Shown: one piece after another, positions 6,710-52,251 of the stretch
Layout of the letters: each line of letters starts with the position of its first letter
Numbering within the stretch: the first letter of the stretch is position 1
DNA from: an uncultured Clostridia bacterium
GTDB taxonomy: Bacteria > CAYTYR01 > UBA6262
NCBI GenBank assembly: GCA_964441745.1
Contig: CAYTYR010000010.1
Location: forward strand, 11,464-75,463
Reading direction: 5' to 3'
DNA: 64,000 nt
Notes under the pieces: model-generated
What the model saw: only the letters and a program-made list of their open reading frames with translations
Told to the model about the DNA's origin: nothing
Databases searched by the model: none
Program-made: the position numbers and the translations under genes

Positions 6710-6847
6710 CCTGCCTGCCGGCAGGCAGGGATTACACCGATTTCAAGCAAAAACAATGACTTCGTTTTAACCTGTAATCTGTTTAAATAATCCCTGTCCG
6801 CCTCTGGCGGATGTGCCGCGCCCGCCGACGCTCTTTGGCGGGTAATC
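6710..6847. repeat. Composite of nested short palindromes (REP-like)
   Basis: cctgcctgccggcaggcagg; gattacaccgatt; ccctgtccgcctctggcggat (also ~38134); gcgcccgcc..cgctctttggcgggtaatc (also ~27000). Confidence 0.75.
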
Positions 6848-34974: not shown

Positions 34975-35640
34975 TTATGCGGTTAGTTGGTCTTTAAGCT
35001 GCCTGGTCAGGATAGTGAAGTTCTTTTCCTGGTAGTATTTCCGCTGGCCCGGCTCAAGCAAAGAACCGAGCTTGACTGCATAATCATTTCTTTGCAATTC
35101 TTCTATCCCCTTAACCAATGCCTTTAACTCTTCAGCCGTAGCGGTAACCGCCACCCCTTTTTTCAGCAAAAACTCCAGGTCATAGACATCCCTGATTTCT
35201 CTCCGGCTCAGGAAAGCCTCGATCTTGGCCCGCATCATTTCTTGCAGACTAACCACCCGCAAGAGGACTTGGACATTGGACTGAGAGCTAAAAGCAATAG
35301 CCGACTCCGTGTTTATTTTCTTAAGTTCTTTCCTGATCTCGATTTTCAGGGAACGCGCATAGGCCGGTGATTTGAGCTCAAAAAGCATGGTATGGAACTT
35401 ATTAGCCGCAGCAGTAATAGTATAGACCTGGGCTAGATAAGTCTTTAATTTCTGGAAATACTCCTTAGGCTCAATATCCTTAATTACCCAGAAATCAAGG
35501 TCCACCGAGTACCGCCCCAGCCCGTGGCAGAGACGCAGCATGGTCCCGCCGCCAAAAACAAGATTCCGGAGAAACCGGCCGCTATTCAGCCGGTCCAGGA
35601 CTTCCAATTCAAATTGTTCGTGCTTTTTCAGATCTTGCAT
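34975..35640 (-). CDS. AbiEii-family nucleotidyltransferase (type IV TA toxin)
   Basis: FGGGTMLRL.HGL.RYSVDLDF, KIEA...R.E.RDVYDL. Confidence 0.9.
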   Translation of the reverse strand: MQDLKKHEQFELEVLDRLNSGRFLRNLVFGGGTMLRLCHGLGRYSVDLDFWVIKDIEPKEYFQKLKTYLAQVYTITAAANKFHTMLFELKSPAYARSLKIEIRKELKKINTESAIAFSSQSNVQVLLRVVSLQEMMRAKIEAFLSRREIRDVYDLEFLLKKGVAVTATAEELKALVKGIEELQRNDYAVKLGSLLEPGQRKYYQEKNFTILTRQLKDQLTA

Positions 35641-36224
35641 ATATTCCTCACTATTTTCCTGGTTTTAGCCGGGTATGGCTTCAGCATTTTGGCTATTTTT
35701 GCTTGATCCAATTTGCTGAGATCCAGGGAATTAAGGTCAATTTTATATTTACCAAAAGAATAAAGATACAGAGCATCCAGAAAGGCCTTTTCCTTGGTCG
35801 CAATGAACAAACTGCCCTGCCTGACAAAATCACCATAATACTTTTGTTGCAGTTTGTAATACTTAAAAACCACTCCGTTAGTTTCATACATAATGGTTCG
35901 TTTCCAGGCCGCGCTCTCTATGAATCCCTGCTGCATTTGGCTGGTCACTTCATAATAAGACAAAGCGCTCATGAAGGAAATATACGAAGGCACTTGCAGG
36001 ATATTGGCGATTTGACGAAGCTCCTGGTCACTGATATTTTGCCATTTCTGGGCAGTAGTAAAATAGTTATTCCTTAACTTGACCAGCAGTCCCTTTTGGA
36101 CATACCGGCTGCAAAACACACTGGCCGAAGGCGCTTGAATCCCCAAAGTCTCAGCCACCTCCGCCACTGTAAAATAAATCTTTTGGCTCAATTCCTGTAT
36201 TTTTAGGCTATTTTTACTAAGCAT
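35628..36224 (-). CDS. AbiEi-family antitoxin
   Basis: N-terminal wHTH-like region, PSYISFMSALSYY, ATKEKAFLD. Overlaps the toxin gene; a TTGACA-17-TATTAT promoter lies just upstream. Confidence 0.85.
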   Translation of the reverse strand: MLSKNSLKIQELSQKIYFTVAEVAETLGIQAPSASVFCSRYVQKGLLVKLRNNYFTTAQKWQNISDQELRQIANILQVPSYISFMSALSYYEVTSQMQQGFIESAAWKRTIMYETNGVVFKYYKLQQKYYGDFVRQGSLFIATKEKAFLDALYLYSFGKYKIDLNSLDLSKLDQAKIAKMLKPYPAKTRKIVRNICKI

Positions 36225-38008: not shown

Positions 38009-38181
38009 TATCCCCCCTAAAAAATATGAAGCGCCACGACTTCGAAAGTCGTGGTTGCGAAATCCGCCTGAGGCGGAAAAAAAACCGCCCGCCAACATTC
38101 CCTGGCGGGCAAATACATCGCCTTAATCTGTGTAATCCCTGTCCGCCTCTGGCGGATCTTTCTAAATCGGTGTAATCGTAC

Positions 38182-40943: not shown

Positions 40944-40969
40944 AAGGCAGAGAGTTTCCCCTCTGCCTT
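40944..40969 (-). terminator. Terminator after the PEP-CTERM array
   Basis: AAGGCAGAG-loop-CTCTGCCTT followed by TT. Confidence 0.6.
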
Positions 40970-41061
40970 TATATTCATACTATTTGCTTTTCCTGATATC
41001 CTGTTATCCTGATATTCTCTTCCTAATATCCTGATCACCTGATACCCTTTACTATTATTAT

Positions 41062-42340: not shown

Positions 42341-42432
42341 CTTCTTCTCCTTCTCCTTCTAAATTCGATTACACAGATTTTCAAAAGAGATTACACCGAT
42401 TAGATCAACCGCGAACTGTTGACTGCGGACCG

Positions 42433-43168: not shown

Positions 43169-43984
43169 TTAAACTTTCTTGCCGAATCTCCTCTTGCCGT
43201 AACCGATCATTCCCAACAATCCACTGCCTAACAGCATCAGTGTCCCTGGTTCCGGTATCGGGTTTACATCAGCCGGCAGGTTCAATACATCATTGCCGCA
43301 CTCCATCGTCCAATGCACGTTTAGGTTTTGGGAAGAATTGTTGTTCAACCCAAGGGCGCTCAACGGAATCCCTGCTTCCAATACATAATGGGTATTCTGT
43401 TCTCCGCTATACACAAAATCCACCCAGTCAAAGGTAGATCCCGAGCTTATCCGCCAGGGATTAGAAGCAGCAAACCCGGAATAGTACACATTCTGCCAGT
43501 TGGCCAAAGTCAGGTTCTTATATAATTTAGCTCTTTTATTCACCGCGTCATATTCCCGCACATCTATACCATATTCATATATACCGTCATTATTCAAATC
43601 CAAGCCGATATCTCCGGTATTGAACCAGGGATTACCAGGAGCTGTGGCCCCACCTATCGGGAAACCAGTGATAACCGCCAGATATACATTAGTAGAAGTA
43701 TTATCAAAGTAAATGGCTTCAGTGTCAAACTGATTGCCGGAATAGGAATATCCCGGCCCTACATACTGCCAGGCAGTCTGCGGTCCGGCATTGTCTTCGG
43801 TGATCACATCAATATCCAAGCCACCGGAAGGCAAATTAGTATTCAGATACCCCAGAGCCGAGGCGCCGGCTATAGCCAGGTTCACATTCCAGTCACTAAC
43901 TGAGCCATCTACTACGTATGCCTGCGCTAAGCTAGACACTAGAAGAGTTAATCCAACCACTAAAGTGCATACTATTCTCTTCAT
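43169..43984 (-). CDS. PEP-CTERM sorting-domain protein 4
   Basis: Signal peptide; HWTMECGND motif; PIPEPGTLMLLGSGLLGMIGYGKRRFGKKV. Confidence 0.93.
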   Translation of the reverse strand: MKRIVCTLVVGLTLLVSSLAQAYVVDGSVSDWNVNLAIAGASALGYLNTNLPSGGLDIDVITEDNAGPQTAWQYVGPGYSYSGNQFDTEAIYFDNTSTNVYLAVITGFPIGGATAPGNPWFNTGDIGLDLNNDGIYEYGIDVREYDAVNKRAKLYKNLTLANWQNVYYSGFAASNPWRISSGSTFDWVDFVYSGEQNTHYVLEAGIPLSALGLNNNSSQNLNVHWTMECGNDVLNLPADVNPIPEPGTLMLLGSGLLGMIGYGKRRFGKKV

Positions 43985-44138
43985 TTTACTATCTCCTTTT
44001 TTTTAAATTTTAGTTGCCTTTATAACCACAAAAAACCGCAGAGAGTTTTGCCGCTCTCAGCAGCTCAAAATAGACAATGTTAAAATGATTGTTACAACAT
44101 TACTCAAGTGATTACTCATACTTTTTGAATTTCCTGCA

Positions 44139-45172: not shown

Positions 45173-46081
45173 TTACCGTGCGCCCTTCCCGGTCAGCATC
45201 ACCACAAAGGTACCAAAGATGATCCTCAGGTCCATCAGCAGGCACATCTTCCTGATATATAATAGGTCATAGTGGACTTTCTTCTTCACATCACTCAGGG
45301 TAGAATCATAGTGCTGGCGTACCTGCGCCAATCCGGTAATGCCTGGCTTTACTCTCAGCCGCTTATTATATTTTTTGATTGATTTATTCAAGGTAGGAAT
45401 GATCTGGGCCCTTTCCGGCCTTGGCCCGATCATGCTCATATCTCCCATAAGCACATTGACCAACTGTGGCAATTCATCCAAATGGGTCTTTCTTAAGAAC
45501 CTGCCCACAGAAGTGATCCGGGGGTCATTTTCCTGGCACCAGACAGCGCCGGTTTCTTGCTCTGCATCTATTTTCATAGTCCTGAACTTATACATGGTAA
45601 AAGAGCGCCCAAAGCTTGGCCCAGCCCGGCGGTCAGTGCCCCGGCTCGCTCTGCGTCTCTCGCTATAGCGCTTGTTTTCTCCTACTCGTTCCTGATTGAA
45701 GAATACTGGCCCTTTGGAAGTTAATTTTATAGCAATTGCTATGACTATCCACAAAGGAGCTGTCACGATCATAGCTAATCCAGCCATCACTATATCCATA
45801 CCTCTTTTGATCTGCCGGAAGAATCTCCTGAAACTGGTCGCTAGCAGTCCAAATATGCCACTGCCAAACAATACCATCGTACCAGGTTCTGGAAGGTGGG
45901 CTACTTCAGCCGATAGGTTCTGGACATAAATTTCGCGCTCCAAATCCAAATTCTGTTTGTTGGTATTACCTGCGGTATTAATACTCAAGTCACTCGGTAA
46001 TCCATCTATTACATAAGCCTGCGCCAAGACGGATAATAGAAGAGTCAAGCTGAACACTAAGTAAAATACTATTCTCTTCAT
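45173..46081 (-). CDS. Fusion of signal peptide, PEP-CTERM module and bacterial sugar transferase (priming phosphoglycosyltransferase) domain
   Basis: MKRIVF...AQA signal, LPEPGTMVLFGSGIFGLL+RR, then KRGMDI, YKFRTM, DPRIT.VGRFLRK.HLDELPQL.NVL.GDMS.IGPRPE, VKPGITGLAQV. Confidence 0.92.
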   Translation of the reverse strand: MKRIVFYLVFSLTLLLSVLAQAYVIDGLPSDLSINTAGNTNKQNLDLEREIYVQNLSAEVAHLPEPGTMVLFGSGIFGLLATSFRRFFRQIKRGMDIVMAGLAMIVTAPLWIVIAIAIKLTSKGPVFFNQERVGENKRYSERRRASRGTDRRAGPSFGRSFTMYKFRTMKIDAEQETGAVWCQENDPRITSVGRFLRKTHLDELPQLVNVLMGDMSMIGPRPERAQIIPTLNKSIKKYNKRLRVKPGITGLAQVRQHYDSTLSDVKKKVHYDLLYIRKMCLLMDLRIIFGTFVVMLTGKGAR

Positions 46082-46162
46082 ATCCCCATCTCCCTTTCTT
46101 TTAGAAACGATCACACAGATTTTAAAAAAGATTACACCGATTAAAGCTAACATAAAAATACA

Positions 46163-46211
46163 TGAGATTAACTAATTGTTCAGTTAATCTCACGGCATCG
46201 TGTCAACTAAC
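46163..46211 (-). promoter_or_regulatory. Operator-like inverted repeat plus a motif shared with the HTH-HD-GYP upstream region
   Basis: TGAGATTAAC-10-GTTAATCTCA; GTTAATCTCACG-N5-GTGTCAACTAAC contains a minus-strand TTGACA. Confidence 0.6.
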
Positions 46212-46352
46212 ATCCCTAATCATCAAACTATATAATAGTTGTTTCTTGATAATTTTTTAGGCTTGTGTTTGTACTTTTCTTATCTCTTACTGCCTCTTGC
46301 CTTTACTACTCTTCCGCACGACGTACGACGCACAACATACGACTGCTTCAGA

Positions 46353-46532
46353 CTATTTCATCTTCTCAGTCAACCAAAGCTTTACCCGAATCCCTTCCTG
46401 TATAGCGATATTAATATCGGCATACTTAAGGGATTTGGCTTTACGATATGCGTGCAATATTTCTACTTCATCTTTGGGAATCCCATTAGACCTGCGTTCC
46501 TGCCTTCTGCGTTCATTGGCAGAGTTCTCCAT
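46353..46532 (-). CDS. Small DUF2292 (YezD)-like protein, 59 aa
   Basis: GGAGG RBS; MENSANERRRQERRS...EILHAYRKAKSLKYADINIAIQEG. Confidence 0.6.
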   Translation of the reverse strand: MENSANERRRQERRSNGIPKDEVEILHAYRKAKSLKYADINIAIQEGIRVKLWLTEKMK

Positions 46533-46643
46533 GACTGGCCTCCATTGATGGTGAGCTTTAACGATCTTAAAATACCACAACACTATGCTTTTGTCAACAT
46601 TTATTTTTAAAAATATTCGATTTTATACGATTTTAACCGATAT

Positions 46644-47438
46644 CTAACATTGTATCATTTCTTTCTTGGCGACATTTTCCAAAACAGCGACCAAGTTTGA
46701 CGCAAACTGGATGTTTTCAAATTTCTTTATCTCGTCGATACTGACCTGTATATTTTCTTTACCTTTGGCTTTATTCTTGTACATGATGACATCAAAAGCT
46801 TCAGCCAGGCCGACTATTTGCGCGTCCAGCGGTATCGCGCCCCCTTTCAACCCTTCCGGGTATCCCATACCGTTGTACCATTCATGGTGATGCTTGATGA
46901 TCGGACTGAAAATTTGCAGGTACTCCACATCCTTAACCATTTCTGAGCCAAATTGCGGGTGCTTTTTTAATTCCTTGTATTCATCACGGGTTAGCTTGTC
47001 AGTCTTGCTCAGTATATCATTGTCCACATTCAATTTACCAATATCATGCAGGAGTCCAGCCATATTTAACAATTCGATTTTGTCATCTTTAAACCCCATC
47101 GCCTGGCCGATCAACCGGCATATCTTGGCCACTCTGGCGCTATGTCCCAGAAACATGGGTATTTCTTTGCCTTCAATGGCGCGGACCATGGCCCTGACGA
47201 TCAAGGCGCTCACATCCATTAATTCTTTCAAGTCATTGCCTTTAAGCTCATCAGCCGCTGTTTCCAGTTTTCTATTTACTTCTGATTCCAGAATACGGTG
47301 ATGCCCGCCTGGCGTTTTAAACGACTTGATCTTACCCTGGTAAATATAATTCTTGACCGTCTGAACGCTGACCTTTAGTATGTTGGCAACTTCCCTGATG
47401 GTTAGAACTCTATGTTCGCGAGGAATGTCTTCGATCAT
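46644..47438 (-). CDS. Excisionase-like HTH (HTH_17/MerR-type) fused to an HD-GYP domain
   Basis: LTIREVANILKVS..TV.NY..QGKI...KTPGGHHRI; GHSARV, HDIGK, HHHEWYNGMGYP. Confidence 0.9.
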   Translation of the reverse strand: MIEDIPREHRVLTIREVANILKVSVQTVKNYIYQGKIKSFKTPGGHHRILESEVNRKLETAADELKGNDLKELMDVSALIVRAMVRAIEGKEIPMFLGHSARVAKICRLIGQAMGFKDDKIELLNMAGLLHDIGKLNVDNDILSKTDKLTRDEYKELKKHPQFGSEMVKDVEYLQIFSPIIKHHHEWYNGMGYPEGLKGGAIPLDAQIVGLAEAFDVIMYKNKAKGKENIQVSIDEIKKFENIQFASNLVAVLENVAKKEMIQC

Positions 47439-47516
47439 AATTCTACCCTTTATATTTGAAGTTCAGAGTTCTATATATGTCTATCAAAACAAAAAAAAAC
47501 GTGAAGAAATGCACTG

Positions 47517-47544
47517 GTTAATCTCACGTTTTGTGTCAACTAAC
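47517..47544 (-). promoter_or_regulatory. Second copy of the GTTAATCTCACG-Nx-GTGTCAACTAAC motif
   Basis: Both 12-mers are identical to those at 46183-46211; the spacer is 4 nt rather than 5. Confidence 0.6.
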
Positions 47545-47737
47545 GCTAAACTCTTTGTATTTTATTACTTATATACGCTTTTTATCCCTTCTTGTCAAGC
47601 ATTTTCTTCTAAAATACGATTACACCGATTTTAAAAGCGATTACACCGATTAAAACCAATACCTTAACACTTTACACTTATAACTTTACACTGTTTTTGT
47701 ATTTCTTTTCTTACTGCCAACCGCGAACGGTTTTTAT

Positions 47738-48532
47738 CTACCGTACCATATTCAAAATCATTTCCCGGTCAAATAGCTTTAATTCATTTTTGTCTTCCAG
47801 GAATCGTTCCACATCTTTTCTGGCAGATGACAGATCGATCAAGGCTAGATGTTCCACCATAAATTGCTTAAAATTGCCAGATGTGACCTGCCAATCTTTC
47901 TTCTCTGTTTGGGCAATGGCATTATTCAACAAAAGGTAATTTGGCTCAATCCCTTTGCCCAAATACCAGATCAAATCATAAAAATCACGCCCCTTAGTAA
48001 ATCTCCTGAAAAAGCAGGCATGTAATTTGGCCGCGTACAGGGAGGGCAGATCAAAACTATTCACGGCAAAGACGAACGACCTGGTTACCGGAATTACTAT
48101 TGTTTTCCAGCCAGCAGGCGGATTCGTGTCAATCTCCAGCTTTACTGCCAGCTTTTGCTCTTGTACCTGGCTCAAACCTAATTCTTTCAGCAACCCCGGG
48201 AATTTGATCATACTGCTATGCACTATCTTATCTTGGTCAGGCTCTGCCTCCACTTTAAATCCATAATGCTTCAGCTCAAACAGCAGATCTTTCAGCAGCT
48301 TTTCGAAAGAATAATCCTTCTTCTCTACTAAGCTAAAATCCAAATCCTCGCTATATCGCCGCAGATCATAAAGAACTCTCAAGGCCGTACCGCCTACAAA
48401 CGCCATATTGCCAAAAGCGCCTCGGTCAAACATGATCTTAAGCATCAGTGCCTGCAGTGTTTCCCTGGTCTTATTTACTTTGTCTTCCAGGCTCATCCCC
48501 AGACTAAAACCTTGTTTGATCGATTCAATCAT
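47738..48532 (-). CDS. AbiEii-family nucleotidyltransferase toxin
   Basis: FVGGTALR..Y.L.RYSEDLDF, KLEID.NPP, KLHA...R...KGRD.YDL.WY. Confidence 0.92.
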   Translation of the reverse strand: MIESIKQGFSLGMSLEDKVNKTRETLQALMLKIMFDRGAFGNMAFVGGTALRVLYDLRRYSEDLDFSLVEKKDYSFEKLLKDLLFELKHYGFKVEAEPDQDKIVHSSMIKFPGLLKELGLSQVQEQKLAVKLEIDTNPPAGWKTIVIPVTRSFVFAVNSFDLPSLYAAKLHACFFRRFTKGRDFYDLIWYLGKGIEPNYLLLNNAIAQTEKKDWQVTSGNFKQFMVEHLALIDLSSARKDVERFLEDKNELKLFDREMILNMVR

Positions 48533-48535
48533 TAT

Positions 48536-49174
48536 TTATCTCCACACTTCTTTTACAACTCTCCTCAGCTTGTGACTCTCAAACAACTCGGCATAGCGCA
48601 ATAAATTTCGCTGATCCAGAGTTTCCAGGTTCTGTAAACGGAATGATTCGCTAGCCCTCAGCTTAAATTCATCTTTGAATAAATGAAGGTTCAAATACAG
48701 AAAATCAACCACTGCTTTTTCCGCAACAGCCAGATAATAGGCTAAGCCGGAATCATCTTTCATTTCCCTGAATCCAGTAAAACAGCGCTCTGGCACATGC
48801 TGGTAAACAAACCTGCCGAGAAAATTTTGAAATACGGCTGTCTTTTTGGAAGAAATGCAGGTAATATCCGCGACTCTTTCAGGAATTAGCCCATAAAAAG
48901 CCAAAGCATACTCCATGCTCACATAAGAGGGACTATATAATTCTTTAGAAATATATAAACGGGAAGGATTGATCTTGCGGTCTTCTTCATTGAGAATATA
49001 TAAGCCCTGCCTCAGCCTTAAGAGCTTGCCGGTCTTGACCCAGCGGCTAACTTGATTTTTAAATGACTGTGACTCATCAGCCACTAGTTTTAAGTATTGA
49101 CTGCTGATCAGGGGCACGCCTTTTACTTTTTTCCGTAACTCTTCATATCTCATAGTATTCCTGTTAATAATCAT
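48536..49174 (-). CDS. AbiEi-family antitoxin
   Basis: RW.K.GKLLRLRQGLY, PSYVSMEYAL.FYGLIPE, AEKAVVD.LY. Confidence 0.88.
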   Translation of the reverse strand: MIINRNTMRYEELRKKVKGVPLISSQYLKLVADESQSFKNQVSRWVKTGKLLRLRQGLYILNEEDRKINPSRLYISKELYSPSYVSMEYALAFYGLIPERVADITCISSKKTAVFQNFLGRFVYQHVPERCFTGFREMKDDSGLAYYLAVAEKAVVDFLYLNLHLFKDEFKLRASESFRLQNLETLDQRNLLRYAELFESHKLRRVVKEVWR

Positions 49175-49230
49175 TATTGATTACTTACAGAAACAATAAT
49201 AGCTTATATTCTTCTGTTTGTCAAGCAAAA

Positions 49231-49294
49231 AAATACACCTGCGAGGTGACCACGCTTCCCAGGGGGCTCCTCGGAGGTGGATTCTGGTTGCTTT
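49231..49294. repeat. ~64-bp hairpin/terminator module, copy 1
   Basis: aaatacacct.cgaggtg.ccacgcttcccagggg.ctcct.g.aggtg...ggttgcttt; second copy at 50395-50457. Confidence 0.85.
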
Positions 49295-50326: not shown

Positions 50327-50394
50327 ATTACTCTCCATATTCTAATATATTTAATATGATTCTAACATATTTTAGAGTTCCTGTTAAGCAAATA

Positions 50395-50457
50395 AAATAC
50401 ACCTTCGAGGTGTCCACGCTTCCCAGGGGACTCCTGGAAGGTGTTACCGGTTGCTTT
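50395..50457. repeat. ~64-bp hairpin/terminator module, copy 2
   Basis: Direct repeat of 49231-49294. Confidence 0.85.
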
Positions 50458-51140
50458 CAGTCTTTTAACAAGCTTTCTATTTCGCTTTCATCTATTTCTT
50501 TCACACCTTTTAGTATCTTCTTCTGCCACTTTTCAGGCACTGACTTAAATACTTTCTTTATAACCCTTGATTCACCTTTTTCTATTAGTGCCTTTAGTAT
50601 CCTAACCGCCGCTTCTTTATCTTTCGCTATCTTGTCAGGCTTATTGCGCCTTTGGAAGATAATCAATTTATGCAACGCAAAATTCGCCGGATGCGGCACA
50701 TTAATAGTTAATCCTTCGATCTCAACCTTGATAACATTATCGCTCAAAAAGGTCAGGAACCTTAGGGTAGTAGCATTTACGCCCAACCGCGGCAGAGGAT
50801 ACGGTTTATCTATCCCCTTGCCTTTCTCAGGGACTAGGAACTCTACGATTAAATCCGGATGTTCCAACTTAATATACCCCTTATCTCCCATGAAACCCAC
50901 AACAAATCCTAAATCTTTTAGGATTTCTGGAATATCCGTTTGACATCTAATTCTATGCGGCTCAGGTACTAATATATCAATATCCCTGGTCCTTATTGTT
51001 GGCATAAATTTTGTCCCGGCGAAATAGTTCTTATAAAAGGGCAGACACCAGCTTCCTATAAAAACTATATCGTTTAATACCCCGGCTTTATTCAGCTTCT
51101 TTAAGATATCAACACAAAGCTCATATTGCTTCTTTTCCAC
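50457..51140 (-). CDS. GSU2403-family (NTP_transf_8-like) nucleotidyltransferase-fold protein
   Basis: VFIGSWC..FY, RTRDIDIL, VEFLVP, VPHPA.FALHKLII..RR...K..KD. Confidence 0.8.
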   Translation of the reverse strand: MEKKQYELCVDILKKLNKAGVLNDIVFIGSWCLPFYKNYFAGTKFMPTIRTRDIDILVPEPHRIRCQTDIPEILKDLGFVVGFMGDKGYIKLEHPDLIVEFLVPEKGKGIDKPYPLPRLGVNATTLRFLTFLSDNVIKVEIEGLTINVPHPANFALHKLIIFQRRNKPDKIAKDKEAAVRILKALIEKGESRVIKKVFKSVPEKWQKKILKGVKEIDESEIESLLKD

Positions 51141-51438
51141 GCAAACTGCTCCTTAGGAATTTAATCTGTTTCTTTACTTGAGATAGCATCTTCCGGTACT
51201 TAGCCCTGTACTTTTTTGCTTCCCCATACTTGTGGATATCTTCCCCTGAAACCTTACCTTTATAGAAGAAATTAACCTTATCTTTGTCACGTACTTGTAG
51301 ATAATAGTAATTATGTCCTTTTATATTTTTCTTGACTAAGCTACCCTTAGGCAATTGAGCTAAGGCCTTCTCATAGCTTTCTTTCATATGCAAAGAATTT
51401 TCTAACTCTTCTTTTAAAACTCCTTTTATAGCTCCCAT
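51121..51438 (-). CDS. Small basic partner protein of the nucleotidyltransferase
   Basis: AGGAGA RBS; LPKGSL..K.IKG..YYYLQ.R...KV...Y.G; overlaps the downstream gene. Confidence 0.75.
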   Translation of the reverse strand: MGAIKGVLKEELENSLHMKESYEKALAQLPKGSLVKKNIKGHNYYYLQVRDKDKVNFFYKGKVSGEDIHKYGEAKKYRAKYRKMLSQVKKQIKFLRSSLRGKEAI

Positions 51439-51456
51439 AGCATTCTCCTTTTTAAA

Positions 51457-51556
51457 GTTACCATACATCATCACTAATAATATACCTTGTATGGTAACCA
51501 TTGTCAATAAAAAAGTTACCATACATCTTTTTTTATTACTATATTTGTATGGTAAC
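51457..51556. promoter_or_regulatory. Four copies of GTTACCATACA in alternating orientation around a sigma70 promoter
   Basis: Copies at 51457-51467, 51488-51498 (rc), 51515-51525 and 51546-51556 (rc); minus-strand TTGACA-17-TATATT. Confidence 0.75.
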
Positions 51557-51586
51557 TAACCAGCCAGCCTTTCAAGAGCTATTTAT

Positions 51587-51614: not shown

Positions 51615-51735
51615 TTTGTTCATTCCCTGATTCCTGTTACCCTGATATCCACTTCCTGATACCCTGATCACCTGATACCCTTCTCTTGCTTTCCTGTCCG
51701 CTGTCCGCTGACCGCTGTTACTCATATCGCTTCAA

Positions 51736-52251
51736 CTACTTCATCTCAAAAACCAACTGTTTATGAAACACTTCTGCAAATCGTTTTAATGTACCTATAC
51801 ATATATTCTCCCGGCCGCTTTCCACTCTGGAAATATATTGCTGGATCACCCCAAGCTTTTTAGCCAACTCCTCTTGAGTATATCCTGATTGTTGCCTCTG
51901 CTTTTTAAGTATCTGAGCTATTTTTATCCTTTCAGGGATGTCACCAGCCTCACGCCGAACCCTAAGACTAATACCCTGTTTCTGCAATAATTCCCGTTCC
52001 AGGGCATATTGTGTCTGCCAGAAAGCAAGCTTGTCTTTATTCCAGGCATCTTTTTCCAGCCGCTTCCTGATTGCCGGCCATTTACGGCAAAAATCCTTCT
52101 GGTTAATAAACCTAAATACTACTTCCGGTTTCTGCGCCCGAGAAATCAATTTCCCGGCATATATAGGAAACCTCGGATTACTGGAATCTTTCAGTATATT
52201 CCGAACTTCCTGCTCATTTAATCTTGTATCCCACAGCCAATTTATTTTCAT
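51736..52251 (-). CDS. XRE-family HTH protein with N-terminal extension
   Basis: C-terminal LKKQRQQSGYTQEELAKKLGVIQQYISRVESG..N; N-terminal WLWD domain. Confidence 0.88.
   Translation of the reverse strand: MKINWLWDTRLNEQEVRNILKDSSNPRFPIYAGKLISRAQKPEVVFRFINQKDFCRKWPAIRKRLEKDAWNKDKLAFWQTQYALERELLQKQGISLRVRREAGDIPERIKIAQILKKQRQQSGYTQEELAKKLGVIQQYISRVESGRENICIGTLKRFAEVFHKQLVFEMK

What the first reader, a model, noticed from the sequence alone, without database searches (positions are those of the whole stretch)
46163..47544. Putative c-di-GMP-linked regulon: HTH-HD-GYP regulator and the PGT fusion share a bipartite upstream motif
Seen: GTTAATCTCACG-N4/5-GTGTCAACTAAC occurs upstream of both the HTH-HD-GYP gene (47517-47544) and the PEP-CTERM-PGT fusion (46183-46211). 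At the second site it is half of a 10-bp inverted repeat. The regulator has intact HD and GYP motifs on a small DNA-binding HTH. Established: HD-GYP domains hydrolyse or bind cyclic dinucleotides, and c-di-GMP commonly controls EPS and biofilm. Inference: a one-component, autoregulated, c-di-GMP-responsive transcription factor controlling a PEP-CTERM/EPS locus.
Basis: partly seen in the sequence, partly recalled or inferred. Interest (0 to 1): 0.65.

Follow-up and report, generated by a model that had tools for sequence, protein, structure and literature searches.

The report
Shared attenuator hairpin upstream EPS genes
The repeated 28-base motif is real and conserved in related genomes, but it lies in the apparent transcribed leaders of the regulator gene and the sugar-transferase gene and overlaps a terminator hairpin, so it most likely acts as an RNA switch on transcription rather than as a DNA docking site for the regulator.

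Summary
GTTAATCTCACG-N4/5-GTGTCAACTAAC occurs exactly twice in the window, against 0 expected by chance. One copy precedes the HTH_17+HD-GYP gene and the other precedes the PEP-CTERM/phosphoglycosyl-transferase fusion. Both copies are kept at the same positions in relatives whose regulators are 40-88% identical. A scan of 185,579 species genomes found the motif on only 5 contigs, all Elusimicrobia-type MAGs and each at this locus where its context was examined. It is therefore not a dispersed repeat.

The anatomy argues against a classical operator. Read in the gene direction, the motif is A (GTTAGTTGACAC)-N4-6-B (CGTGAGATTAAC). At the regulator gene it starts about 20 nt downstream of a conserved TTGACA-17-TATATA promoter. 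In all 18 motif-matching copies, B is followed by a loop of variable length, a segment C that pairs with B, and a T-run. That arrangement is an intrinsic terminator. A pairs with B (95% of cells), which would exclude the terminator. Supporting details are the variable spacers, a 41:4 excess of G·U over A·C, and compensatory changes.

Best reading: a terminator/antiterminator leader switch, not in Rfam, whose conserved A:B hairpin is read by an unidentified factor. The link to c-di-GMP remains inference.

The parts
47533..47544 (-). Segment A of the regulator-gene leader (GTTAGTTGACAC in the gene direction). It forms the 5' half of the conserved A:B hairpin.
47517..47528 (-). Segment B of the regulator-gene leader (CGTGAGATTAAC). 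It pairs either with A or with the downstream TTCACG.
47491..47505 (-). Short segment C (TTCACG, 47505-47500) followed by a T9 run (47499-47491). Together with B this makes a weak terminator-like hairpin (-6.8 kcal/mol).
   Evidence: the RNA model trained only on other sites finds it at E 7.5e-5
47570..47598 (-). Conserved sigma-70-type promoter of the regulator gene: TTGACA (47598-47593), a 17-nt spacer, then TATATA (47575-47570). It places the motif at about +20 to +47 of the transcript.
   Evidence: sequence and invariant columns in the 6-genome alignment. The transcription start is inferred, not mapped.
47446..47554 (-). Other conserved blocks of the regulator leader: AGAGTT (47554-47549), AACTCT (47470-47465) and the Shine-Dalgarno AGGG (about 47448). 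They could form an anti-SD / anti-anti-SD arrangement.
   Evidence: Conserved in sequence, with no covariation, so this is inference only.
46644..47438 (-). Gene for the HTH_17 (BldC/excisionase-like) + HD-GYP protein, 264 aa.
46569..46597 (-). Promoter-like site (TTGACA-17-TATTTT with an upstream TG) ahead of the small ORF. It is the nearest scan-detected upstream promoter for the transcript that runs into the second motif copy.
   Evidence: Equivalent TTGACA promoters occur in L008, L010 and L017.
46353..46532 (-). Conserved small ORF (59 aa, core YRKAKxLKYADIxIAIQEGxRVKLWLTEK) of unknown function. It lies next to the motif in 9 of 10 lineages.
46200..46211 (-). Segment A of the PGT-gene leader (GTTAGTTGACAC).
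46183..46194 (-). Segment B of the PGT-gene leader (CGTGAGATTAAC). It is shared between the A:B hairpin (-10.3 kcal/mol) and the terminator (-18.3 kcal/mol).
46151..46172 (-). Segment C (GTTAATCTCATG, 46172-46161) plus the T-rich tail TATTTTTATG (46160-46151). This is the 3' arm and tail of the intrinsic terminator.
45173..46081 (-). Fusion gene encoding signal peptide, PEP-CTERM motif and phosphoglycosyl transferase (Bac_transf). It is the first gene downstream of the switch and is followed by six PEP-CTERM protein genes.

Best explanation
The bipartite motif is the conserved part of a transcription-attenuation switch that acts in RNA. In the gene direction each copy has five parts: segment A (GUUAGUUGACAC), a 4-6-nt loop, segment B (CGUGAGAUUAAC), a variable loop, and segment C, which is complementary to B and is followed by a U-run. 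B:C plus the U-run is an intrinsic terminator that sits between a promoter and the coding sequence. A:B is a smaller hairpin of 7 + 3-4 bp with a conserved NA/A internal loop. It sequesters B and so precludes the terminator. A:B is the weaker structure at the PGT site (-10.3 against -18.3 kcal/mol); at the regulator site the two are close (-7.8 against -6.8 kcal/mol). Its sequence is conserved far more tightly than pairing alone requires. The most likely logic is therefore that termination is the default, at least at the PGT site, and a trans-acting factor that binds the A:B hairpin stabilises it and allows read-through into the genes. The same module precedes the HTH-HD-GYP gene, the PEP-CTERM/PGT gene and, in relatives, further PEP-CTERM genes, so one factor would gate the whole set, with feedback on the regulator gene. 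Shown here: the anatomy, the conservation, the pairing statistics and the restriction to this locus. Inferred: transcription start sites, actual termination, the direction of the switch and the identity of the factor. The locally encoded HTH-HD-GYP protein and the 59-aa protein are the obvious candidates, and neither has a known RNA-binding fold.
For: (1) Position. At the regulator gene an invariant TTGACA-17-TATATA promoter lies about 25 nt upstream of the motif in 6 genomes. At the PGT gene the nearest promoter-like site on that strand precedes the small ORF. In L008, a TTGACA promoter lies about 70 nt upstream of the motif with no intervening ORF.
(2) Terminator. The scan calls CGTGAGATTAAC..GTTAATCTCATG+TATTTTTATG at 46194-46161(-), and it folds at -18.3 kcal/mol with z -7.2. 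Each of the 18 motif-matching copies found in the fetched loci, and the two diverged copies in L009 and L104, has a C arm followed by a T-rich tail.
(3) Pairing of B with C. In 12 sequences 96.5% of cells are paired, 2 pairs show compensatory changes, and only 1 of 500 shuffles reaches the observed values.
(4) Pairing of A with B. In 18 distinct sequences 95.4% of cells are paired, against 17-39% when partners are slid. No shuffle of 500 reaches the paired percentage. There are 2 compensatory pairs, seen in 2 of 500 shuffles: C-G to U-A in L009 and U-A to A-U in L104. RNAalifold independently picks A:B in the regulator leaders. The isolated motif folds with z -3.1 and -4.8.
(5) Signature of the RNA strand. 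Non-Watson-Crick cells are G·U on the sense strand 41 times and A·C 4 times. In L017 the C arm pairs with B through three G·U wobbles.
(6) Variable geometry. The A-B spacer is 4, 5 or 6 nt and the B-C loop is 4-11 nt.
(7) An RNA model trained only on PGT-type copies recovers the regulator-type copies (E 1e-6 to 2e-3), the diverged L009 copy (E 3e-5) and the L104 copy (E 0.007-0.08).
(8) All copies point the same way as a gene that starts about 50-135 nt downstream, either the regulator gene or a signal-peptide/PEP-CTERM gene.
(9) The motif is locus-specific: 5 contigs among 185,579 species genomes.
Against: There is no transcript evidence. Only DNA metagenome runs hold this sequence, so the transcription starts, the termination and the read-through are all inferred. 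Covariation in A:B is thin: two compensatory events, both in the two most diverged copies. The strong sequence conservation of A and B would fit a DNA site equally well. The terminator at the regulator gene is weak, with a 5-6-bp stem, a 14-16-nt loop and -6.8 kcal/mol (z -0.9). No recognisable RNA-binding antiterminator (CAT/PRD, ANTAR or NusG paralogue) is encoded in the window ORFs that were scanned. The one clearly nucleic-acid-binding domain nearby is a DNA-type winged HTH. The HTH residues are highly conserved across the family, which is what a conserved DNA operator would predict.
Confidence: 0.55

Rival explanations
1. The HTH-HD-GYP protein binds the double-stranded motif as a quasi-palindrome (GTTAgTT..CAC / GTG..gATTAAC). 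From about +20 to +47 it would repress or modulate its own promoter and the PGT promoter in response to a cyclic dinucleotide. The adjacent terminator would be a separate feature.
For: The motif and the regulator co-occur in lineages spanning 40-88% regulator identity. The sequence of A and B is conserved well beyond what pairing needs. The HTH is a DNA-binding type and nearly invariant across the family. Operators downstream of a start site are known as roadblocks (established knowledge). Symmetric changes in a palindrome would also look like covariation.
Against: Half-site spacing varies by 2 bp (N4-6), which rotates the half-sites by about 70 degrees. B is always reused as a terminator arm followed by a T-run, which this model has to treat as coincidence at 18 of 18 motif-matching copies. 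Imperfections are G·U on the sense strand 41 times against 4 A·C. The closest solved relative, BldC, binds AATTNNNNC direct repeats head-to-tail, not inverted repeats. L104 has the module next to the small ORF and a PGT gene with no HTH-HD-GYP gene within 5 kb.
Confidence: 0.25
2. There is no switch. The copies are ordinary intrinsic terminators or leader hairpins that spread by local duplication. Segment A would be a passenger or a stabilising 5' extension, and no trans-acting factor would be involved.
For: The hairpin plus T-run alone is enough for a terminator. The extra copies in L003 and L015 lie between consecutive PEP-CTERM genes, where a plain terminator would be expected. PEP-CTERM genes in this cluster are themselves duplicated (families D1, D2 and D4).
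Against: A constitutive terminator between a promoter and the start codon of the regulator and PGT genes would silence them. Segment A and its pairing to B are retained at every copy, including the diverged L009 and L104 copies, which carry compensatory changes. Other intergenic terminators in the same cluster have unrelated sequences and no A-like segment.
Confidence: 0.1
3. A ligand-sensing riboswitch. The A:B hairpin, possibly with the flanking AGAGUU/AACUCU helix in the regulator leader, would bind a small molecule such as a cyclic dinucleotide directly.
For: The leader is conserved and overlaps an expression platform. c-di-GMP riboswitches upstream of EPS and biofilm genes are established in other bacteria (prior knowledge).
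Against: Rfam has no match, including the c-di-GMP-I and -II families, even at E up to 10. The element shared by the two sites is only about 29 nt, with a variable apical loop and a 2x1 internal loop. That is smaller and simpler than known aptamers. The flanking conserved blocks are absent from the PGT-site copy.
Confidence: 0.05
4. A site-specific recombination core. Two directly repeated 28-bp sites (two 12-bp arms around a 4-5-bp spacer) would flank an excisable cassette that carries an excisionase-like HTH gene.
For: The arm-spacer-arm layout and the 'excisionase family' HTH resemble recombinase sites.
Against: The two spacers differ in length and sequence (AAAA against GATGC), which is incompatible with strand exchange. 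No recombinase is encoded nearby. The third and fourth copies in relatives, and the obligatory C arm plus T-run, are left unexplained.
Confidence: 0.02

Closest known systems
RAT/terminator attenuators read by BglG/SacY/LicT-type antiterminator proteins
   Same: A hairpin of about 29 nt with internal loops and conserved sequence overlaps the 5' arm of a more stable intrinsic terminator in the leader. Several operons of one pathway carry the same element, and so does the regulator's own gene.
   Different: There is no sequence similarity to RAT. No CAT/PRD protein is encoded in the window ORFs scanned. The candidate local factors are an HTH-HD-GYP protein and a 59-aa protein of unknown fold. 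Binding has not been tested.
Antitermination control of polysaccharide loci (RfaH/ops-JUMPstart, LoaP with its leader hairpin, Bacteroides UpxY, Bacillus EAR RNA)
   Same: A leader element upstream of exopolysaccharide or surface-protein genes governs whether RNA polymerase passes terminators.
   Different: Those systems are processive and depend on NusG paralogues or a large RNA. Here each copy has its own overlapping terminator, which is the classical attenuator design, and no NusG paralogue was found among the window ORFs scanned.
c-di-GMP riboswitches (GEMM-I and c-di-GMP-II) with terminator expression platforms
   Same: They are cis-acting leader RNAs linked to the biofilm/EPS and cyclic-dinucleotide theme, and they use terminator/antiterminator competition.
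   Different: There is no Rfam match. The shared element is a simple 29-nt hairpin, so direct ligand binding is unlikely.
BldC (Streptomyces), PDB 6AMA/6AMK
   Same: It is the closest solved relative of the N-terminal HTH (E 9e-5; NCBIfam HTH_BldC E 2e-11).
   Different: BldC is a stand-alone 68-aa protein that binds AATTNNNNC direct repeats head-to-tail (PMC5859096). Here the HTH is fused to an HD-GYP domain, the score is below the family cut-off (43 against 77 bits), and the bipartite motif is not a direct repeat.
HD-GYP phosphodiesterases: V-cGAP3 (5Z7C), PmGH (4MCW), PA4781 (4R8Z), Bd1817 (3TM8)
   Same: The C-terminal domain aligns over the whole catalytic core, with the HD motif, HHE and GYP present.
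   Different: Known members carry REC, GAF or other sensor domains. An N-terminal DNA-type HTH partner has not been characterised. 440 homologues were found, and those listed carry only domain-level or generic names. The substrate, c-di-GMP or 3'3'-cGAMP, cannot be told from sequence.

Membership tests
Intrinsic (Rho-independent) terminator | Stable stem-loop immediately followed by a T/U-run on the transcribed strand | tested here: met
   One search finds a 15-pair stem plus TATTTTTATG at 46194-46151(-). One search gives -18.3 kcal/mol and z -7.2. All 18 motif-matching copies have a T-rich tail. The copy at the regulator gene is weak (-6.8 kcal/mol, T9).
Intrinsic (Rho-independent) terminator | Transcripts actually end at the U-run | not testable with these tools
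   No RNA runs contain this sequence.
Terminator/antiterminator leader attenuator | The element lies between promoter and start codon, in the transcribed leader | tested here: met
   A conserved TTGACA-17-TATATA promoter lies about 25 nt upstream of the motif at the regulator gene. TTGACA promoters lie upstream in L008, L010 and L017. Start sites are inferred from consensus only.
Terminator/antiterminator leader attenuator | Two mutually exclusive helices that share one strand | tested here: met
   A:B is 95.4% paired and B:C is 96.5% paired, both helices use segment B, and both show compensatory changes.
Terminator/antiterminator leader attenuator | Read-through responds to a signal or factor | not testable with these tools
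   Needs in vitro transcription or reporter assays.
BglG/LicT-type (RAT) or ANTAR-type protein-dependent antitermination | A cognate CAT/PRD or ANTAR RNA-binding protein encoded with the targets | tested here: not met
   No such domain was found in the window ORFs scanned. The ANTAR dual-hexaloop pattern is absent from the motif.
c-di-GMP riboswitch (Rfam GEMM-I, c-di-GMP-II) or any Rfam family | Match to the family covariance model | tested here: not met
   searched 45900-47800 at E up to 10 and returned only chance snoRNA-like hits. on the whole window found tRNAs only.
   HTH_17 at E 5e-13 plus HD_5 at E 9e-28. The architecture is shared by most of the best 120 of 440 homologues.
   The spacer is 4, 5 or 6 nt, and the motif lies downstream of the conserved promoter.
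   Requires EMSA or DAP-seq with and without ligand.
HD-GYP cyclic-dinucleotide phosphodiesterase | Conserved metal-ligand set: H, HD, H, HH(E), D and the GYP loop | tested here: met
   H99, H131-D132, H160, H184-H185-E186, D216 and G192-Y193-P194 are invariant in 14 homologues. The domain aligns to V-cGAP3 at 1e-26 and PmGH at 5e-19. Activity and substrate were not tested.
BldC family regulator | Score above the NCBIfam HTH_BldC cut-off, and a stand-alone wHTH | tested here: not met
   43.3 bits against a cut-off of 77, and the HTH is fused to HD-GYP.
Dispersed repeat (REP/MITE) | Many copies at unrelated loci in a genome | tested here: not met
   2 copies in 64 kb. Only 5 contigs in 185,579 species genomes, with 1-2 exact copies each, at this locus where context was examined.

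The most novel reading that the evidence does not exclude
The conserved A:B RNA hairpin is bound by the locally encoded HTH-HD-GYP protein, or by the 59-aa protein acting with it. Binding would be controlled by the cyclic dinucleotide that the HD-GYP domain binds or hydrolyses. That would make it a second-messenger-controlled protein antiterminator gating a PEP-CTERM/exopolysaccharide regulon, and an RNA-binding use of an excisionase/BldC-type HTH.
Probability: 0.1. Interest if true: 0.8.

Novelty: new member of a known kind. Interest (0 to 1): 0.5.

Why it matters
Regulation of PEP-CTERM/exosortase loci is poorly understood outside a few Proteobacteria, and nothing is known about it for Elusimicrobia-type uncultured bacteria. 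This locus offers a compact, testable cis-element of about 60 nt that links a cyclic-dinucleotide enzyme gene to the first committed EPS enzyme and to PEP-CTERM surface proteins. If the switch is confirmed, it adds an undescribed leader-RNA family. It also raises a concrete question: which factor reads the hairpin? It further shows how a shared upstream motif can be mistaken for a transcription-factor site when it is in fact the conserved half of a terminator/antiterminator pair.

Tried and rejected
(1) TTGACA inside the motif as a -35 box. Rejected because it is not conserved (TTAACA, TTCACA and TTGATA in orthologues) and no -10 follows at a usable distance.

(2) Rfam. No family matches at the motif, even at E up to 10.

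(3) Transcript evidence. Only DNA metagenome runs hold the sequence.

(4) A metagenome scan with the regulator alignment returned only relatives of 38% identity or less, without the motif. Terminator scans of two of them showed no similar module.

(5) The small 59-aa protein. It has no Pfam hit at E up to 10 and no PDB sequence hit. The AlphaFold model (pLDDT 70, helix plus beta-hairpin) gave no Foldseek match below E 2. Its arginine-rich N-terminus (ERRRQERR) is not conserved in L017, L099 or L104, so the idea of a lambda-N-like arginine-rich motif was dropped. A resemblance to YezD/DUF2292, recalled from memory, was not confirmed by HMM.

(6) GATTACACCGATT pairs as the 'real' regulon motif. 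There are 10 hits in the window against 1.4 expected. However, they occur in both orientations, next to GC-rich hairpins, at non-orthologous positions in relatives. This looks like a REP-like dispersed element. It loosely fits the BldC AATTNNNNC repeat, which is a lead only.

(7) Recombination-site reading. Rejected because the spacers are unequal and there is no recombinase.

(8) Literature. No paper links PEP-CTERM to antitermination, and none describes an HTH-HD-GYP transcription factor.
Full report
OBSERVATION. The two copies are exactly as described: 46183-46211 (spacer GCATC) and 47517-47544 (spacer TTTT), both on the + strand. Allowing up to 3 mismatches finds no further copy in the 64-kb window, and shuffled sequence gives none. 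Each 12-mer half on its own is not enriched. The 11-of-12 inverted partner at 46161-46172 is also real. All genes here are on the minus strand. ORF 46644-47438 encodes HTH_17 plus HD-GYP. ORF 46353-46532 encodes a 59-aa protein. ORF 45173-46081 encodes a signal peptide, a PEP-CTERM motif and a Bac_transf (phosphoglycosyl transferase) domain. Six PEP-CTERM protein genes follow. Upstream lie an AbiEii/AbiEi toxin-antitoxin pair, a papain-like peptidase gene, a 1404-aa fn3 protein gene and a glycosyltransferase/epimerase cluster. The EPS/PEP-CTERM context is therefore correct. In the gene direction the motif reads A = GTTAGTTGACAC, a spacer, then B = CGTGAGATTAAC.

THE MOTIF IS CONSERVED AND LOCUS-SPECIFIC. 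The regulator has 440 homologues, and most of the best 120 listed share its architecture. A close clade at 52-88% identity comes from Elusimicrobia-type and unclassified MAGs. Contigs that encode these relatives keep the gene order peptidase, HTH-HD-GYP, small ORF, PGT, PEP-CTERM genes. The motif is present at both orthologous positions in L002, L003, L005, L006 and L010, whose regulators are 68-88% identical. It is present before the PGT gene in L008 (59% identity). It is also present before a PEP-CTERM-type gene in L017, where the regulator is only 40% identical. A degenerate pattern scanned over one genome from each of 185,579 species matched only 5 contigs. All are Elusimicrobia-type or unclassified MAGs, with 1-2 copies each, and each copy sits at this locus where its context was examined. 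A looser search of the fetched loci found extra copies between consecutive PEP-CTERM genes in L003 and L015, giving 18 distinct instances.

THE ANATOMY POINTS TO RNA. Four features stand out.
- At the regulator gene, an invariant TTGACA-17-TATATA promoter (47598-47570) lies upstream of the motif. This puts the motif at about +20 to +47 of the transcript.
- In every motif-matching instance, B is followed by a loop of 4-11 nt (14-16 nt in the regulator leaders), a segment C complementary to B, and a T-run. The terminator scan calls the 46194-46151(-) copy, and it folds at -18.3 kcal/mol with z -7.2.
- A pairs with B as 7 outer pairs, a conserved NA/A internal loop and 3-4 inner pairs. The isolated motif folds at -7.8 and -10.3 kcal/mol (z -3.1 and -4.8). 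RNAalifold chooses this hairpin as the consensus structure of six regulator leaders.
- A:B and B:C share B, so they exclude each other. This is the classical antiterminator/terminator layout.

PAIRING STATISTICS. For B:C, 96.5% of cells are paired in 12 sequences, 2 pairs have compensatory changes, and 1 of 500 shuffles reaches the observed values. For A:B, 95.4% of cells are paired in 18 distinct sequences, against 17-39% when partners are slid. No shuffle of 500 reaches the paired percentage, and 2 pairs have compensatory changes. Those two changes come from the most diverged copies. One is L009, where the regulator is 52% identical and the arms read CATGAGACAAAT/TTTGTCTCATG. The other is L104, from a GC-richer genome. 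A covariance model built only from PGT-type copies found both of them, and it also found all regulator-type copies. Non-Watson-Crick cells are G·U on the sense strand 41 times and A·C 4 times. In L017 the C arm pairs with B through three G·U wobbles. The A-B spacer is 4, 5 or 6 nt. All copies point the same way as a gene that starts about 50-135 nt downstream, either the regulator gene or a signal-peptide/PEP-CTERM gene. None of this is expected for a dimeric protein site of fixed geometry on duplex DNA.

WHAT STAYS OPEN. A and B are conserved in sequence far more than pairing requires, while C and the loops drift. Something therefore reads A:B in a sequence-specific way. It could be an RNA-binding factor, which is my preferred reading. 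That works like RAT/BglG-LicT antitermination, where a weak conserved hairpin that overlaps a strong terminator is stabilised by a protein. No CAT/PRD, ANTAR or NusG-paralogue protein is encoded among the window ORFs scanned. The local candidates are the HTH-HD-GYP protein and the 59-aa protein.

The HTH is a DNA-type winged helix. Its closest solved relative is BldC (6AMA, E 9e-5), which binds AATTNNNNC direct repeats head-to-tail (PMC5859096). The bipartite motif does not have that pattern.

The 59-aa protein defines a family of 94 unnamed proteins with no Pfam, PDB or Foldseek relative. Elsewhere it sits directly upstream of glycosyltransferase, epimerase or PGT genes, sometimes with no HD-GYP gene nearby. 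In L104 it lies next to a diverged copy of the module. L008 keeps the module and the regulator but has no small ORF within the fetched region. So neither protein is strictly linked to the motif.

The HD-GYP domain has all catalytic and GYP residues. Its best solved match is the 3'3'-cGAMP phosphodiesterase V-cGAP3 (1e-26), followed by PmGH. The nucleotide involved cannot be assigned from sequence. No transcript data exist for this organism, so the start sites, the termination and the direction of the switch are all inferred.

THE REGULATOR LEADER HAS MORE STRUCTURE. AGAGTT (47554-47549), AACTCT (47470-47465) and the Shine-Dalgarno region are invariant or nearly so across six genomes. They could form an anti-SD / anti-anti-SD pair around the hairpin. 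There is no covariation to support this, so it remains an idea.

COMPARISON AND NOVELTY. The element works like a protein-dependent leader attenuator. It fits the general theme that polysaccharide loci are controlled after initiation, as with RfaH, LoaP, UpxY and EAR. It matches no Rfam family, and I found no paper on it. I file it as a new member of a known kind: an undescribed attenuator family with a narrow phylogenetic range. The HTH-HD-GYP architecture is common in Elusimicrobia and Omnitrophica MAGs but uncharacterised.

VERDICT. My confidence is 0.55 for the RNA terminator/antiterminator switch with an unknown trans factor, 0.25 for the DNA operator, about 0.1 for passive terminators, 0.05 for a riboswitch and 0.02 for a recombination site.

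Noticed in passing
window 6730-6742, 38125-38177(-), 42367-42401, 46109-46142, 47618-47651: GATTACAC[CA]GATT occurs mostly as pairs 21-22 bp apart (40 bp at 38125/38165). It gives 10 hits against 1.4 expected, and the 9 with at most one mismatch, plus the 46109 copy, are intergenic. It appears in both orientations and often next to a GC-rich hairpin (ccgccagaggcgg). In relatives it sits at non-orthologous positions, so it looks like a REP/MITE-like dispersed element. It loosely fits the BldC-type AATTNNNNC 9-bp direct repeat, so it could instead be a DNA site for the HTH protein.
   Followed up: partly
window 45173-46081(-); also 43881-44004 vs 45978-46101: The PGT is fused behind a signal peptide, a short secreted segment and a PEP-CTERM motif. 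The conserved N-terminus (MK[RK]IV...AQAYVVDG) recurs in the homologous 440-485-aa proteins of several relatives. The 5' end of the gene is 73% identical to that of the neighbouring PEP-CTERM gene 43169-43984. Whether exosortase would cleave the enzyme from its N-terminal part is unclear.
   Followed up: partly
window 46353-46532(-): The 59-aa protein belongs to an unnamed family of 94 proteins with the core YRKAKxLxYADIxIxIQEGxRVKLWLTEK. It has no Pfam or PDB relative. It recurrently sits just upstream of glycosyltransferase, epimerase or PGT genes in several uncultured lineages, sometimes in two or three copies per genome.
   Followed up: partly
window 46600-46640: ATCG is repeated at a 10-bp phase (ATCGGTTAAAATCGTATAAAATCGAAT in the gene direction) just upstream of the -35 of the small-ORF promoter. 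Similar AAAATCG repeats stand at the same place in L008 and L010. This is a candidate protein-binding site on DNA.
   Followed up: no
window 47738-49174(-) and 34975-36224(-): There are two AbiEii/AbiEi type IV toxin-antitoxin pairs. The first is inserted between the peptidase gene and the regulator gene, a slot where relatives carry other TA modules (ParE, PIN, MazEF) or nothing.
   Followed up: partly
window 40969-41049 and 51632-51682: Arrays of an 8-10-nt unit, read on the + strand as TCCTGATA (YATCAGG on the gene strand), are 90% identical between the two places. A similar array follows the small ORF in L003. Function unknown.
   Followed up: no
window 49227-49279 and 50391-50443: A 53-nt intergenic sequence is repeated at 89% identity on either side of the papain-like peptidase gene (AAAAAAATACACCTGCGAGGTG...). 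Unexplained.
   Followed up: no
window 15212-16624(-): A second HD-GYP protein (HAMP + HD_5, 470 aa) sits next to ABC substrate-binding and TonB-receptor genes. No GGDEF or PilZ gene was seen in the window ORFs scanned.
   Followed up: no
window 51456-51557: A long imperfect inverted repeat has 43-nt arms, 74% complementarity and a 16-nt gap. It overlaps the 5' end of ORF 51121-51522 and the intergenic region before the HTH_3 gene (51736-52251).
   Followed up: no
window 14214-14788 and 24289-26911 (-): Nine tRNA genes lie in two clusters on the minus strand. They are the only Rfam matches in the window.
   Followed up: no
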